From a virus (taxonomy: Duplodnaviria; Heunggongvirae; Uroviricota; Caudoviricetes): a DNA stretch of 18,733 nt. Made by a program: the position numbers. The stretch spans positions 1 to 18,733 of the IMG/VR virus record IMGVR_UViG_2690316269_000016; one strand, 5' to 3'. Numbering within the stretch: position 1 is the first letter of the stretch; the number at the start of each line of letters is the position of its first letter. Below, piece by piece: positions 3,001-6,000 of the stretch.

Positions 3001-6000
3001 ACGTTTTCAAGGTCCCCGACCTGAAATGTCCACTGCCATTCTCCGGTTTCTTTTTGCCCCCATGTATACCAGAGAGAACGCCAGCCAATCAGCCAGCCTT
3101 CTCCATTAGCATCAAATAACAGAACACTTTCATTCGCTGGCGGCAGTTCAGCTGACACTGGTATTACTTTGTTTTCCAGTGCTGCACATTTAGCTTCAAG
3201 CGCATCAAATTTACGCACCAGGTATTCAGCATCCGTTTCATTCACTTTCAGATCTCGCGGTACACATTTCCCGCGAAGAAATCCTTCCATTTCGAAAACA
3301 TTCATGCGCATTTGCGTAACTCCGATAATTCGTTAAAGCGTTCCATAAACATCCCGTAGGCATGGCCTGGTGCCAGTGGAATCACGTTGAACATCTCTGT
3401 TGCCGGGATACCTTCCAGTACAGGCCAGAAAGAGCCATCATCAAGCCCGAGATCGCGGCGTTCGGTTGCCAGCATGATGAGATCGGCATATTTCACGGGC
3501 GTACTCATAACCGGTGGTAACCCGTATTTCTCACGGATTACGGCGTCTATTTTTTCTTCCATCCGTTTATAGTCAGGAAGAAGGCGTTTCAGTGGTGCGG
3601 GAATGTCCTGGCAATACGCTTCTGTTGCATCATGCATTAACGCTTCAAAAGCAAATTCCTGCGGCACCAGCTGGCTGCAAAGAACCGCATGTTGGGCGAC
3701 GCTGTAGAAGTGCGAAAGATGACCGGCAAAGCGACAGATATTTGAAAGGGAAACCGCGATATCGTTAATATCGATGTCGTCTTTATTTATCCTGTCATAA
3801 TAAAAATGCTTCCCAGAAAAAGTTTTGATAAATGACATTTTGTTCTCCACGTATATGCGCTGCACCGCGCTGAATTCTGGTAAAAAGAATCCCTCACCAT
3901 CCGGCGATTATTGAGTAAATTACGTTTCCATAAATGCCCCCGCAGGGGCATTTGCAGTAATGAAATCAGGCGGTGAAAGTACCAATAAAGGTTTCTACTT
4001 TGCTGTCCTTGAATTTCTCAACAAGCAGATCACGAAATTCGTTAGCCATTTCTTCCTGCACCGCCTCCAGCTGAATAATGCGCAGAACCAGTACAGGACG
4101 ATCGCCAGTGATAATGCTGAGGCGTAATTTAAACGGACGTTCTTTCAGACCTTCAAACGGAACGCATTTAAATTCAAATGCCACTGGCATAATGTCTTTG
4201 GTCTTCGCTTCGACAGACTCCATCAGGGAGCGTTTGCCGCTGAAGTCATTGTCTTCAAAATCAGCGGTCTGGTTCGCTTCAATTGTGATTTTACGGATCG
4301 CCGCAGCCGCTTTGGTTGCCTGAATGGCGTCACCATTAGCATCAAAGCCCACAAGGTAGTCGGCCCAGTCTTCAATCCATTCTGCCAGTGACTTCTGGGA
4401 GTTACGCTCGCCATTAACAGACAACAGAGCAGAGAACGGTGCTGTCTTTTTCAGTTTGAGAGTGGCGGTGTTATCTGCGTGACCTGGTTCATCAATAGTA
4501 CCCAGGTTAAGCACACTGACGGCTCGCATATTATCGGCATCGATAAAGCAGCGGGTGCCTTCATCTGCAAGATCTTTAGAATAACGGGTAAAGTCATCGA
4601 TGCTGGCAGTGGAAAGTGCACCACGGAAACGGAAACGATTTAAATTAAATTTTTCCAGATCATGAATGCGGAAATTCTCAGGCAATGCCACAGCATCGGC
4701 ACCAATCTTACTGATAATTTCATTAACACCCTGAGCAGAAATAAGGGCATGGATTTGATTAATTGCGGTTGCGTCTAAGTTCTGAGACATAATAAGTCCT
4801 CACTATATAAAGATATTCAGTGATGAGATAAATAATCGGTTAATTAAGAACGATATTAATGACCTGCTGCGCGGAGTTTTCCGTCAGGTTCACCGGCAAG
4901 AGTCAGTAATTGTCCCTGGTCTTCCTGCAGAATAGTCAGGCGACCACCGCGATTGACATACATCGGCGTTTCGGTGGTGTCTTCTTCGGAAATTTTCCCG
5001 CGGTTAGTCGGGCGAACATATGAGAGTTTGTGTTTGATTTTTACACGGTTCTCATCAAATGGTTCGATTTCCAGGTTGAGTGAGACCTTACCTTTGGTTT
5101 TCGTGTTCATCACACCTGAAGCGACTTCACTGAGAACTGCGCCGATTTTGGTTTCAAATACGCCGCCGTCCAGCTCCCCGATAAATGCCTGCACATCAGT
5201 ACTGCGTTCGCTAGCCATTTTGCTGCTCCTAATCATATCGACCCTGCAAGGTCGGTTGGTTTCTCCACAAAACAGAGAAGAACACCTGCGGTGGCAGCCG
5301 CCCGGATGGATTGGGTTATGAGCCCGTCGTCCGGTGATGCTCTTCTCTGTTTTGTAAAAAGAGCGGTACCAGCCGGAAGCAAGTGTACAAACTGGTACCG
5401 CCAAAGCAGTGGCTGTTGTGGTGACCGGTGCTGATCTCCGGCTTGCGGTTATTTCAGACTCTCACGGGCGTTTAATTGCCCCGCCGAACAGCTCTTTTCC
5501 GCAATAGCTGCAATGTCTTTCGCGCATCAGCCTGCGCATTCACCACAACGCTGAGAGCACTTAGCCAGTTACGGCACCACACTTTGTCGCGGTTCCATAA
5601 ATGCCCTCATCGTTGCACCCTGGTCTCTTCCCAGGTGTCAAACCGAACCGCCACGCTGGTTAGGCGTCTTATCAGCATCATCATTGACTTGCACATTCCG
5701 GCTACCTGGTTTGTTTGCCCGAGCAAGGAGTGGATTGTCCCCTTTAACGTCCCCAGACCGCTAACGACGCATGTGCCATACGCCGTGTTACAACCAAATT
5801 TTGTTTAATCTTGCCTGTGACATGTTTCTTTTAGATACATTATGTATCTCAAGGGTACATTGTCAAGTATAAAAAAACCTGCCGAAGCAGGTTATAAATA
5901 TTGATTAGGCCTTTATTTTGTATCTTCTTGGTTTTCCTGAGAAAATTACTGTACCAATTATAGAGCAATTACCGTTGATCTTAATGTAAGGTTCAGGCCA

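What the first reader, a model, noticed from the sequence alone, without database searches (positions are those of the whole stretch)
5219..5833. Roughly 600-nt non-coding, highly structured leader between the PL-like promoter and the first leftward gene
Downstream of a near-consensus promoter (TTGACA-16-CATAAT) there is no ORF of 60 codons or more on the transcribed strand for about 600 nt; manual reading found only short ORFs of 25 codons or fewer without a Shine-Dalgarno. Close to the first gene the transcript can form a 10-bp GC hairpin followed by UCUUUUUACAAAAC, which reads either as an intrinsic terminator or as a boxA-like element (CGCUCUUUUUACAA). That is followed immediately by a perfect 15-bp inverted repeat closing a 59-nt GC-rich loop, just before the yfdP-like RBS. 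Lambda places N and nutL here. This element may instead carry an RNA-based or host-factor-dependent antitermination or attenuation signal, or a prophage sRNA.
Basis: partly seen in the sequence, partly recalled or inferred. Interest (0 to 1): 0.55.

Follow-up and report, generated by a model that had tools for sequence, protein, structure and literature searches.

The report
Prophage leader of tRNA-like RNA modules
The 600-base untranslated stretch behind this prophage's early-left promoter is a chain of conserved folded RNA modules; one is the published small RNA sRNA-17, which proves to be a tRNA-shaped element shared by many unrelated phages.

Summary
The promoter, the lack of an independent ORF, the 10-bp hairpin with a U tract and the 15-bp inverted repeat are all present.

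The leader is not a nut/N, boxA or put leader. It is a mosaic of separately conserved, horizontally shuffled non-coding RNA modules on the minus strand:
- Region A, 5799-5616.
- A long-stem "unit 1", 5615-5548.
- A tRNA-shaped "unit 2", 5549-5415.
- An intrinsic terminator, 5401-5355.
- A long-stem 5'-UTR element, 5363-5259, carrying an initiator-tRNA-like anticodon hairpin.

Unit 2 plus the terminator (5550-5357) matches every published primer of sRNA-17 exactly. sRNA-17 is a 193-nt sRNA of an E. coli K1 mEp460-like prophage, with RACE-mapped ends and a positive Northern blot (PMC7719688). So the hairpin is a working terminator and the "prophage sRNA" reading is right.

That paper does not report the following:
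- Unit 2 has a conserved closing stem and D-like and T-like hairpins whose loops can pair.
- The arm between them is hypervariable, with at least 72 variants.
- Copies occur in more than 100 phage contigs and 51 bacterial species across Proteobacteria, co-oriented with tRNAs where tRNAs are nearby.
- No Rfam family matches.

The RNA's function is unknown.

The parts
5839..5866 (-). PL-like sigma-70 promoter, TTGACA-16-CATAAT. The start site is inferred near 5832.
   Evidence: 11 of 12 matches. It lies immediately after the cI-like repressor terminator at 5893..5876.
5616..5799 (-). Region A. A conserved structured non-coding module that ends in the hairpin CUGG-GAAGAGA-CCAG (about 5635-5621). 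It contains the GTTA-N13-GTTA (5768-5745) that fits the ArcA-site pattern the sRNA-17 authors searched for.
   Evidence: 79-82% identical to P1 directly after tRNA-Ile and to phiV10 directly before tRNA-Arg(UCU). About 35 distinct homologues were recovered. RNAalifold on 13 of them gave 31 pairs, 5 with compensatory changes.
5548..5615 (-). Unit 1. A 16-bp long stem (AACGAUGAGGGCAUUU / AAGUGCUCUCAGCGUU) with a 36-nt variable tip, abutting unit 2.
   Evidence: In distinct copies upstream of unit 2, 57 of 171 reach 14 or more of 16 ungapped pairs, against 4% of shuffles. There are 41 different covarying stem pairs. In other phages the tip holds a canonical T arm, a whole tRNA-like cloverleaf, or an initiator-like anticodon hairpin.
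5415..5549 (-). Unit 2, a tRNA-shaped domain. Closing stem GUUGUGGUGA/UCACCACAAC (5549-5540 / 5424-5415). D-like hairpin GCGCA-GGCUGA-UGCGC (5538-5523). A variable multi-helix arm of about 80 nt (5522-5443). T-like hairpin GCCGG-AGAUCAGCA-CCGGU (5442-5424). The loops GCUGA and UCAGC are complementary.
   Evidence: Model R1 scores 91.4 bits (E 6e-23) on the minus strand against 12.3 bits on the plus strand. On 56 sequences, 98.2% of cells are paired, 8 pairs changed on both sides, and 0 of 500 shuffles reach this. At least 72 distinct variable arms were seen.
5357..5550 (-). Equivalent of the published sRNA-17. It comprises unit 2, a short linker and the terminator.
   Evidence: All sRNA-17 primers and the Northern probe from PMC7719688 Table S2 match the window with 0 mismatches. 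The 'full length' primers span 5550..5357, 194 nt against the published 193 nt.
5355..5401 (-). Intrinsic terminator. Stem GCGGUACCAG/CUGGUACCGC, a 19-nt loop, then UCUUUUUA.
   Evidence: The published 3' end of sRNA-17 lies in the U tract. yfdP and yfdR gave 0.5 and 0 reads in the wild-type lysogen. The hairpin arms covary across homologues while the U run is kept.
5259..5363 (-). A long stem of about 22 bp encloses two arms. One arm, CCGGA...UCCGG, carries the hairpin GGG-CUCAUAA-CCC (5325-5313). The other is the small variable hairpin GCGG-CUGCCA-CCGC. The element ends in GGAGAAAC.
   Evidence: Model R2 scores 118.7 bits on the minus strand against 38.5 on the plus strand, with no other copy in the window. 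In 47 distinct homologues there are 35 pairs, 10 with compensatory changes. CGGGCUCAUAACCC is identical over 14 nt to the anticodon arm of E. coli initiator tRNA metZ. The element precedes different first genes in different prophages.
5216..5254 (-). Small hairpin CGACC-UUGCAG-GGUCG (5254-5239), Shine-Dalgarno AGGAG (5230-5226) and the yfdP-like start codon (5218-5216).
   Evidence: hairpin. Homology to K-12 yfdP begins 20 nt before this ATG.

Best explanation
The 'leader' is a string of autonomous non-coding RNA modules carried as cargo between PL and the first early-left gene. It is not a nut, boxA or put control region.

**Shown**
- The RNA sense is leftward.
- A transcript spans at least 5799 to 5404.
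- A discrete 193-nt RNA (sRNA-17) runs from the unit 1/unit 2 junction (5550) to the U tract of the GC hairpin (about 5357).
- The genes behind the hairpin are silent in the lysogen.

**Inferred mechanism**
1. RNA polymerase starting at PL transcribes region A, unit 1 and unit 2. In lysogens it may instead read through the repressor terminator just upstream.
2. Most polymerases stop at the intrinsic terminator.
3. The precursor is cut endonucleolytically inside the 3' strand of the unit 1 duplex, 4 nt before the first G of GUGGUG. This releases the compact tRNA-shaped unit 2 with its terminator hairpin as the stable species.
4. The enzyme is unassigned. RNase III acting on the 16-bp duplex, or a tRNA-processing activity, are candidates.
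5. Only read-through transcripts carry the M element and yfdP.

**What unit 2 is**
The family has a nearly invariant core: a closing stem plus D-like and T-like hairpins whose loops can pair like a tRNA elbow. In the position of the anticodon arm it has a freely exchangeable arm. In some phages the same slot holds a real tRNA. My reading is that this is a tRNA-derived scaffold that makes a stable RNA and displays a variable payload. What the payload does in trans is unknown.
For: **Identity with sRNA-17**
- Every published primer and the Northern probe match the window exactly, and the full-length primers span 5550..5357.
- The RNA's ends were mapped by RACE and it is Northern-positive.

**A longer precursor exists**
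- The published qRT-PCR pair for 'sRNA-17' maps to 5799-5778 and 5404-5423. Its amplicon therefore starts about 250 nt upstream of the RACE 5' end.
- No sigma-70-like promoter was found between 5550 and 5800. The only near-consensus one is PL.

**The terminator works**
- The 3' end lies in the U tract.
- yfdP gave 0.5 reads and yfdR 0 reads in the wild type.

**Structure and strand**
- Model R1 scores 91.4 bits on the minus strand against 12.3 on the plus strand. Model R2 scores 118.7 against 38.5.
- Covariation is seen in unit 2, the M element, unit 1 and region A.

**Modules behave as cargo**
- Different parts of the leader match different phage groups.
- The same unit 2 payload is combined with at least 5 different upstream units, or sits directly behind another PL-like promoter.
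- SfV-type prophages keep only the terminator and M element, and K-12 CPS-53 keeps none.

**Relation to tRNA**
- phiV10 has tRNA-Arg(UCU) exactly where unit 2 starts.
- In Massilia the unit 1 slot is a 65.7-bit tRNA.
- L294 has a near-canonical tRNA-like domain in the same GUUGUGGUG...CACCACA frame.
- 27 of 193 distinct copies have a tRNA within 400 nt, and all 27 are on the same strand.

**Spread**
- The exact 25-mer occurs in 51 species: many Enterobacterales, plus other Gamma-, Beta- and Alphaproteobacteria and one Geobacteraceae MAG.
- 1177 of 5426 complete E. coli genomes carry 80% or more of the leader.
- No Rfam family matches.
Against: - **Origin of the transcript is not shown.** No experiment demonstrates that it starts at PL or that the 5' end at 5550 is a processing product. 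The RACE method as described does not separate primary from processed ends. The authors assign a promoter within 5550-5799 and show ArcA-P binding to that DNA, although at 20-80 uM protein.
- **Expression in a lysogen is unexplained.** sRNA-17 is detected in a lysogen in LB, where PL should be repressed. Read-through from the repressor gene is my guess.
- **The 5' end does not fit RNase P.** It lies 4 nt upstream of the position RNase P would be expected to cut on a 7+5-bp acceptor/T-stem ruler.
- **tRNA-likeness is by shape and position only.** ARAGORN and the Rfam tRNA model do not recognise unit 2.
- **The loop-loop pairing is weakly supported.** It rests mainly on invariance, with one compensatory change, eight G-U changes and a few mismatches.
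- **Collection bias.** Homologues were gathered with exact patterns from the conserved cores, so part of the invariance is by construction.
- **Terminator association is partial.** Only about half of unit 2 copies are followed by a terminator-like site: 60 of 130, against 28 of 130 in a control window.
- **No function was found.** The variable arm has no antisense target in the window beyond chance.
Confidence: 0.6

Rival explanations
1. The published view. sRNA-17 is an independent gene with its own ArcA-repressed sigma-70 promoter inside 5550-5799. Region A and unit 1 are promoter/operator DNA rather than RNA modules, and 5550 is a transcription start.
For: PMC7719688 reports a BPROM prediction, ArcA-P EMSA on the 5550-5799 fragment, oxygen- and ArcA-dependent levels, and expression in a lysogen in LB where PL should be off. 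A GTTA-N13-GTTA lies at 5768-5745.
Against: - The authors' own qRT-PCR amplicon starts at 5799, about 250 nt upstream of the RACE 5' end, so RNA covers the supposed promoter.
- No sigma-70-like match was found in 5550-5800.
- The GTTA repeat lies about 200 nt upstream of 5550.
- Region A and unit 1 keep stems through compensatory changes. They also occur behind or before tRNA genes in P1 and phiV10, where they cannot be this promoter.
- The EMSA used 20-80 uM protein.
Confidence: 0.2
2. The modules act in cis on the early-left operon. They could be an RNA-based or Nus-factor-based processive antitermination or anti-Rho device (put-like or boxA-like). Alternatively they could be an RNase III processing and translation-control leader for yfdP, as in the lambda N leader.
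For: - Position between PL and the first gene.
- A terminator has to be passed to express the operon.
- The M element is a duplex of about 22 bp abutting the RBS of the first gene in many prophages, a plausible RNase III substrate.
- CGCUCUU is shared with lambda boxA (my own knowledge).
Against: - No similarity to the HK022 put region.
- Only a single copy of unit 2 and of the M element, with none behind PR.
- The boxA-like string is not conserved in homologues.
- Region A, unit 1 and unit 2 also occur in virulent T1-like, Ackermannviridae and P1 phages, outside any PL operon.
- Related prophages run the same operon without these modules.
- The RNase III/translation role of the M element alone is not excluded.
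Confidence: 0.1
3. The modules are DNA-level passengers with no RNA function of their own. They could be decayed tRNA genes and tRNA-array spacers, or cassette-like mobile or recombination-linker DNA bounded by the inverted repeat GTTGTGGTG...CACCACAAC.
For: - Interiors are swapped between identical frames, as in Ayreon/cdtI against this window.
- Module combinations are shuffled.
- Intermediates grade into true tRNAs.
- The variable arm is hypervariable.
Against: - The core is nearly invariant across bacterial classes, with an exact 25-mer in 51 species. D-like, T-like and unit 1 stems change only in compensating ways.
- The models show strong strand asymmetry.
- A stable RNA with defined ends accumulates, and its deletion has reported phenotypes.
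- No transposase or integrase partner and no target-site duplications were noticed. This was not tested systematically.
Confidence: 0.08
4. The stretch encodes small proteins, as several phage records annotate. Candidates are the 49-aa TTG ORF at 5233..5382, an N-terminally extended YfdP starting at TTG 5404, or the reading ...KCSQRCGECAG* across the D-like hairpin.
For: - Mechanical ORFs exist.
- Phage records annotate short hypothetical proteins here.
- The peptide-like reading CS(Q/F)RCGECAG* recurs in unrelated phages.
Against: - Annotations disagree with each other in strand and position. RefSeq annotates nothing in the listed full-length copies.
- In the window the CGECAG frame has a stop 3 codons upstream of the K.
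- Conservation is at nucleotide level, with compensatory pairs.
- The M element precedes unrelated genes.
- K-12 YfdP starts at the ATG equivalent to 5218.
Confidence: 0.02

Closest known systems
sRNA-17 of E. coli K1 RS218 (Sun, Song et al. 2020, Front Microbiol 11:574833; PMC7719688)
   Same: It is the same sequence. All primers and the probe match the window exactly, and window 5550..5357 equals the RACE-defined 193-nt RNA in an mEp460-like prophage.
   Different: The paper treats it as an orphan trans-acting sRNA with its own ArcA-controlled promoter. The words tRNA, terminator and processing (apart from a reference title) do not occur in its text. It reports homologues only by BLASTN in a few enterobacteria and mEp460. 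The fold, the family, the neighbouring modules and the precursor reading are from this analysis.
tRNA and tRNA-like domains (tmRNA tRNA-like domain, bacterial Y-RNA-like YrlA, tRNA scaffolds used to express recombinant RNA)
   Same: A closing stem stacked on a 5-bp T-like hairpin, a D-like hairpin, and pairing between the two loops in the place of the tRNA elbow. Copies lie on the same strand as adjacent tRNAs, and the same genomic slot is filled by true tRNAs in relatives.
   Different: It is not recognised by ARAGORN or the Rfam tRNA model. It has no anticodon arm and no CCA. The loops are 6-7 and 9 nt with up to 5-6 Watson-Crick pairs, instead of the G18/G19-psi55/C56 contacts (the tRNA facts are my own knowledge). 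The closing-stem sequence is nearly invariant.
GOLLD and ROOL, large ornate RNAs of phages and prophages
   Same: Non-coding, phage-borne, often next to tRNA genes, sometimes with a tRNA inside a variable region (my own knowledge). Here a tRNA-like insert sits inside the unit 2 arm in L187, and tRNAs flank copies.
   Different: No match to either Rfam model, even at E up to 10. The modules are much smaller (about 70-220 nt). Hosts are Proteobacteria rather than mainly Firmicutes. Nothing is known about multimerisation.
Lambda PL leader (nutL boxA/boxB, N, RNase III site)
   Same: Position directly behind PL and before the first early-left gene, with long duplexes that could be RNase III substrates.
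   Different: No conserved boxA and no N gene. The first genes are yfdP, yfdQ and yfdR homologues. An efficient terminator precedes the first gene.
HK022 put RNAs (cis-acting antiterminator RNAs)
   Same: Structured RNA encoded just downstream of an early promoter in a lambdoid phage that lacks N.
   Different: No sequence similarity to the HK022 PL leader. There is one copy only, none in the PR operon. The modules also occur outside early operons.
P1/P7 C4 and P4 CI RNAs (small phage RNAs cut out of longer transcripts by RNase P)
   Same: Small stable phage RNAs matured from a longer operon transcript. A C4 family member lies elsewhere in this window (7923-8010).
   Different: No similarity to the Rfam C4 model in the leader. 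The processing enzyme here is unknown.

Membership tests
sRNA-17 (PMC7719688) | Sequence identity with the RACE-defined 193-nt RNA and its Northern probe | tested here: met
   Full-length primers, RACE primers, the probe and the qPCR primers all match with 0 mismatches, and the full-length span is 5550..5357.
sRNA-17 (PMC7719688) | Location in an mEp460-like prophage upstream of yfdP and yfdR | tested here: met
   The window is 99.4% identical to mEp460 over query positions 116-771, window 5805-5150. yfdP and yfdR are the neighbouring genes in the paper's data.
Intrinsic (Rho-independent) terminator | G+C-rich hairpin immediately followed by a U tract | tested here: met
   A 10-bp perfect stem followed by UCUUUUUA.
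Intrinsic (Rho-independent) terminator | RNA 3' ends at the U tract in vivo and downstream genes insulated | tested here: met
   From the literature on an identical sequence: the 3'-RACE end lies in the U tract, and yfdP gave 0.5 and yfdR 0 reads in the wild type. Not measured for this strain.
tRNA (Rfam RF00005 / ARAGORN) | Cloverleaf with anticodon arm, recognised by tRNA models | tested here: not met
   No tRNA in the window and no RF00005 match in the leader at E up to 10. True tRNAs in relatives score 63-75 bits.
Lambda-type nut site (boxA + boxB with N) | boxA sequence conserved among homologous leaders | tested here: not met
   In homologues the segment reads CCGCCCUUUUUACGC, GCCGCAAUUUUUUACGC or GCCGCAUUUUUUUACGC, and a few have no U run in that position.
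Lambda-type nut site (boxA + boxB with N) | An N-like antiterminator gene directly downstream | tested here: not met
   The first genes are homologues of K-12 yfdP, yfdQ and yfdR. No profile search for N-like proteins was run on the whole window.
HK022 put antiterminator RNA | Sequence similarity to putL | tested here: not met
   blastn with word size 7 against the HK022 nun-cI-cro region gave only chance matches, best E 0.17.
HK022 put antiterminator RNA | Paired sites, one in each early operon (putL and putR) | tested here: not met
   Models R1 and R2 each find a single copy in the 18.7-kb window with filters off.
HK022 put antiterminator RNA | Makes RNA polymerase terminator-resistant in cis | not testable with these tools
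   This needs in vitro or in vivo read-through assays.
GOLLD / ROOL / any Rfam 15 family | Match to the family covariance model | tested here: not met
   cmscan found nothing relevant at gathering score or at E up to 10 in the leader, or in six homologous loci at E up to 0.5.
RNase P or RNase III substrate | Cleavage by the enzyme at the mapped 5' end | not testable with these tools
   The published 5' end (5550) lies inside the 3' strand of the unit 1 duplex, 4 nt before GUGGUG. No enzyme data exist.

The most novel reading that the evidence does not exclude
Unit 2 is a natural 'tRNA scaffold'. It would be a tRNA-derived chassis, spread among phages of several proteobacterial classes, that hijacks host tRNA-type folding, processing and stability to display interchangeable RNA payloads, of which at least 72 arm variants were seen. 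The companion long-stem elements would display tRNA parts in the same way: T arms, whole cloverleaves, or the initiator-tRNA anticodon hairpin GGG-CUCAUAA-CCC. These RNAs would act as decoys or sponges for host factors that recognise tRNAs, such as anticodon nucleases of defence systems, VapC-type toxins that cut initiator tRNA, or modification and initiation factors. They would then be a class of RNA-based counter-defence or host-takeover cargo, with sRNA-17 as its first studied member.
Probability: 0.15. Interest if true: 0.85.

Novelty: new variant of a known kind. Interest (0 to 1): 0.6.

Why it matters
One module is already published as sRNA-17, an sRNA whose deletion is reported to affect blood survival and meningitis by E. 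coli K1. To that extent the finding is explained.

The analysis adds three things:
1. sRNA-17 is not an orphan. It is one member of a tRNA-shaped RNA family with an almost invariant core and an exchangeable arm. The family is found in lambdoid, P1-like, epsilon15-like, T1-like and Ackermannviridae phages and in prophages of many Proteobacteria. It is absent from Rfam.
2. The DNA published as its promoter is itself two conserved RNA modules, and the authors' own qPCR amplicon covers it. The 193-nt RNA is therefore probably cut out of a longer early-left transcript. This changes how the ArcA result and the deletion phenotypes should be read, because the deletion also raised yfdP about 95-fold.
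3. The early-left operons of many enterobacterial prophages begin with a conserved element carrying an initiator-tRNA-like anticodon hairpin.

About a fifth of complete E. coli genomes carry this leader without any annotation. Simple experiments could settle whether phages use tRNA mimics as cargo.

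Tried and rejected
- **Rfam.** Searches at gathering score and at E up to 10 found nothing in the leader. The window's only hits are C4 and isrK, elsewhere.
- **tRNA or tmRNA.** ARAGORN finds none in the window. Its 'tmRNA' call in phage swi2 is an artefact of unit 1/unit 2 lying next to tRNA-Met.
- **phi80 M3 RNA, a classic RNase P substrate.** It is annotated as the oop homologue between cII and the replication gene, so it is unrelated.
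- **HK022 put.** No similarity.
- **K-12 CPS-53 as a source of transcript data.** It lacks the whole leader. Homology starts 20 nt before the yfdP ATG.
- **Small-protein reading KCSQRCGECAG*.** Rejected because of an in-frame stop 3 codons upstream and nucleotide-level covariation.
- **Antisense targets of the unit 2 arm inside the window.** The longest complementary match is 11 nt, the same as for shuffled arms.
- **Pas sRNAs of EPEC/EHEC prophages.** These lie in late regions near Q, holin and lysozyme, which is a different locus.
- **Literature search by sequence string, and for tRNA-mimic or decoy RNAs of phages.** No description of this family was found.
- **RS218 genome record.** It is not in the local collection, so the mapping was done through the published primers instead.
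- **Self-cleaving ribozyme folds (HDV-like/theta, twister, hatchet).** The strand order of the helices does not fit an HDV-type nested double pseudoknot (my reading), and no Rfam ribozyme model matches apart from a 14.5-bit chance hit on the opposite strand. Catalysis itself was not testable.

Full report
**1. Setting**

The window is a lambdoid prophage of the mEp460 / cdtI / Ayreon / Stx2c-phage type. It is 100% identical over the leader to a chromosomal prophage of E. coli strain EC-07. On the minus strand the order is as follows:
- A cI-like repressor gene (5905-6579) and its terminator (5893..5876).
- A near-consensus promoter, TTGACA-16-CATAAT (5866..5839, 11 of 12 matches).
- About 615 nt without an independent gene.
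- Homologues of K-12 yfdP (ATG at 5218), yfdQ and yfdR.

**2.

- The 10-bp hairpin (5392-5401 / 5363-5372) with its U tract is present.
- The inverted repeat (15 bp perfect, 25 nt at 84%) is present.
- The RNA folds better than shuffles, z = -3.2.
- The only long frame is the yfdP frame, which stays open upstream to a TTG at 5404.
- Phage records annotate contradictory short ORFs on both strands. RefSeq annotates nothing over the listed full-length copies, and 1177 of 5426 complete E. coli genomes carry 80% or more of the leader.

**3. The leader is a mosaic**

I number leader positions q1 to q591, equal to window 5810 down to 5220. A sensitive BLAST of the leader matches different phage groups in different segments:
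- q12-189 matches P1-like phages, directly after tRNA-Ile and before ban.
- q25-268 matches epsilon15-like phages, ending exactly at an unannotated tRNA-Arg(UCU).
- q249-397 matches the P1-like phage RCS47, after tRNA-Asn and tRNA-Thr.
- q250-290 matches many unrelated virulent phages (T1-like, Ackermannviridae) in unannotated stretches.
- q408-591 matches SfV-like prophages.

This led me to define five modules.

**4. Unit 2 (5549..5415)**

Alignment of copies from unrelated phages shows a fixed architecture:
- A closing stem GUUGUGGUG(A) / (U)CACCACAAC.
- The linker AAU.
- A 5-bp hairpin GCGCA-GGCUGA-UGCGC.
- A hypervariable arm of 12 to about 190 nt, with at least 72 distinct versions in about 170 loci.
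- A 5-bp hairpin GCCGG-AGAUCAGCA-CCGGY that abuts the 3' strand of the closing stem.
- The two loops are complementary (GCUGA / UCAGC).

Support for this structure:
- On 56 sequences, 98.2% of cells are paired and 8 of 21 pairs change on both sides. No shuffle out of 500 reaches this, and slid controls collapse.
- Covariation is clear for the D-like and T-like stems. Examples are GCACA/UGUGC, GCGAA/UUCGC, GUCGG/CCGAC and GUUGG/CCAAC.
- Support for the loop-loop pairing is thin: one compensatory change and eight G-U changes.
- A covariance model finds exactly one copy in the window, at 91.4 bits on the minus strand against 12.3 on the plus strand.

The topology is that of the acceptor/T-arm minihelix plus the elbow of a tRNA. 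Relatives fill the same slot with real or nearly real tRNAs:
- phiV10 has tRNA-Arg there.
- L294 has a domain with D arm, anticodon-like arm and UUCAAAU T loop within the same GUUGUGGUG...CACCACA frame.
- tRNAs flank copies in Massilia, Aeromonas and Janthinobacterium prophages.
- 27 of 193 distinct copies have a tRNA within 400 nt, and all 27 are on the same strand.

It is nevertheless not a tRNA by model.

Spread of the family:
- The exact 25-nt core occurs in more than 100 IMG/VR contigs.
- It occurs in 51 species representatives. Most are Enterobacterales, with Aeromonas, Marinobacterium, Moraxellaceae, Lysobacterales, four betaproteobacterial genera, Martelella, and one Geobacteraceae MAG that may be mis-binned.

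**5. Unit 1 (5615..5548) and region A (5799..5616)**

- Directly upstream of unit 2 most copies have a long stem with a variable tip. The commonest form is AACAGGUAAGAGCA...UGCUCUUUCCGUU, with a bulged A and a U-U mismatch.
- In the window the stem is AACGAUGAGGGCAUUU / AAGUGCUCUCAGCGUU.
- 57 of 171 distinct copies reach 14 or more of 16 ungapped pairs, against 4% of shuffles. There are 41 different stem sequences that covary.
- The tips may be a canonical T arm (GGUUCGAnUCC), a complete tRNA-like cloverleaf whose acceptor stem is extended and lacks CCA (Massilia, 65.7-bit tRNA), or an initiator-like anticodon hairpin.
- Region A is a further conserved module with its own covarying stems.

**6. 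Terminator and M element (5401..5259)**

- It has a long stem of about 22 bp enclosing two arms.
- One arm carries the hairpin GGG-CUCAUAA-CCC.
- The 14-mer CGGGCUCAUAACCC is identical to the anticodon arm of E. coli initiator tRNA.
- The other arm is a small variable hairpin.
- The element ends in GGAGAAAC, followed by a small hairpin and the RBS.
- In 47 distinct homologues there are 35 pairs, 10 with compensatory changes.
- Copies found without using the anticodon-like motif keep the YUCAUAA-type loop.
- The element precedes different first genes in different prophages. It is usually preceded by a hairpin plus U run whose arms covary.
- In one prophage an operator/promoter region abuts it directly (L296).
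- Only one copy exists in the window.

**7. Link to the literature**

[quoted passage not shown] The primary paper is Sun, Song et al. 2020 (PMC7719688). It reports the following:
- A 193-nt RNA in E. coli K1 RS218, mapped at both ends by RACE.
- A positive Northern blot in LB.
- Induction in stationary phase.
- Lower levels under low oxygen through ArcA.
- No Rfam homologue.

How its primers map to the window:
- All primers and the probe match the window with no mismatch.
- The 'full length' pair spans 5550..5357. The RNA therefore starts at CGUU|GUGGUG, which is the unit 1/unit 2 junction, and ends in the U tract of the GC hairpin.
- This settles the hairpin as a terminator.
- yfdP and yfdR are essentially silent in the wild-type lysogen, at 0.5 and 0 reads.

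The paper calls 5550-5799 the promoter and shows ArcA-P binding to it at 20-80 uM. Three points argue against that reading:
- Its own qRT-PCR primers for 'sRNA-17' map to 5799-5778 and 5404-5423, so an RNA covering region A, unit 1 and unit 2 exists.
- No sigma-70-like site was found there.
- The GTTA repeat fitting the authors' ArcA-site pattern (5768-5745) lies about 65-85 nt downstream of the inferred PL start and about 200 nt upstream of 5550.

The words tRNA, terminator and Hfq do not occur in the paper, and 'processing' occurs only in a reference title.

**8. Most likely mechanism**

1. Transcription starts at PL. In lysogens it may instead arise by read-through of the repressor terminator that abuts PL; this is a guess.
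2. It runs through region A, unit 1 and unit 2, and mostly stops at 5355-5362.
3. The precursor is cut inside the 3' strand of the unit 1 duplex to give sRNA-17.
4. ArcA-P bound inside region A DNA could act as a roadblock.
5. Read-through transcripts carry the M element and the early-left genes.

Shown: sense strand, longer transcript, RNA ends, insulation. Inferred: PL origin, processing, the enzyme, the roadblock.

The modules look like cargo rather than operon-specific control, for three reasons:
- They are exchanged independently between phages. The same unit 2 payload is found with at least 5 different unit 1s, or directly behind another PL-like promoter.
- They are missing in part or in whole from prophages with the same operon.
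- They occur in virulent phages.

**9. What it is not**

- Not nut/boxA.
- Not put.
- Not M3/oop.
- Not a member of any Rfam 15 family.
- Not coding.
- No antisense target in the window.

**10. Caveats**

- Homologues were gathered with exact patterns from conserved cores, so invariance there is partly by construction.
- tRNA-likeness is by topology and position only.
- About half of unit 2 copies have a terminator-like site within 160 nt (60 of 130, against 28 of 130 in a control window).
- Only 14% have a tRNA within 400 nt.
- The trans function of sRNA-17 and of the family is unknown. The published deletion phenotypes may be confounded by a rise of about 95-fold in yfdP.

**11. Verdict**

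The finding is real. Its central piece is already published as an sRNA. Not described in that paper, and not found in Rfam or in my literature searches, are the tRNA-shaped family with an exchangeable arm, its reach across proteobacterial phages, the companion modules, and the precursor reading. I rate interest at 0.6.

Noticed in passing
window 7822-7898 (+) and 7923-8010 (+): Rfam gathering-score hits to isrK (58.1 bits) and C4 antisense RNA (80.7 bits) lie in the early-right region. Both fall inside a mechanical 278-aa ORF (7462-8298). This suggests a P1/P7-type immI (C4-antirepressor) or Gifsy-1 IsrK-like module in this prophage.
   Followed up: no
L004 (phage P1, AF234172) about 230-410 and 500-640, plus strand: P1 carries two unit 1 (+ unit 2 or unit 2 remnant) copies after tRNA-Asn and tRNA-Thr. 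They lie on the tRNA strand, under the CDS 'plp' and 'upl' that are annotated on the opposite strand. Either those ORFs overlap a structured RNA or their annotation is doubtful.
   Followed up: partly
L005 (phage phiV10, NC_007804) 1742-1818: A tRNA-Arg(UCU) scoring 73.3 bits in Rfam is not annotated in the RefSeq record. It sits exactly where unit 2 starts in the window.
   Followed up: yes
L007 (phage vB_EcoS_swi2) 1111-1485: ARAGORN calls a 'tmRNA' with tag AKAVRLRKCSFRCGECAG*. This is an artefact of unit 1 and unit 2 lying next to tRNA-Met. The same pseudo-peptide reading recurs wherever unit 2 occurs.
   Followed up: yes
L178, L186, L208, L230, L233 (hairpin upstream of the M element or downstream of unit 2): In some relatives the terminator hairpin is much larger and contains a conserved internal motif (...GGGGGACGAAGAUAAUGUUCU...). 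It is preceded by a conserved GCUGUGUGUAGUC. This looks like yet another conserved RNA domain, and no Rfam family matches it.
   Followed up: no
L187 (contig labelled Geobacteraceae MAG): The unit 2 variable arm contains a tRNA-like insert with D arm and T arm, and the contig otherwise resembles enterobacterial phage sequence. The taxonomic label may reflect mis-binning.
   Followed up: no
window 5866-5893 (-): The U tract of the repressor-gene terminator runs straight into the -35 hexamer of PL (UUUUUUUAUAC-TTGACA). Any read-through from the repressor transcript therefore enters the leader directly.
   Followed up: no
PMC7719688, Table 1 and Table S2, mapped to window 5404-5799: In the published delta-sRNA-17::Cm strain, yfdP rises about 95-fold and yfdR from 0 to 8 reads. 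This is probably read-through from the cassette, so the reported phenotypes may not be due to loss of the sRNA alone. The qPCR amplicon used to quantify 'sRNA-17' covers the region the paper calls its promoter.
   Followed up: partly
window 5550-5260 and homologues: Every long-stem element is followed by GUGG(U/A)GAA: GUGGUGAAU before unit 2 and GUGGAGAAAC after the M element. The U run before the M element can pair with GGAGAAA. The meaning is unknown.
   Followed up: no
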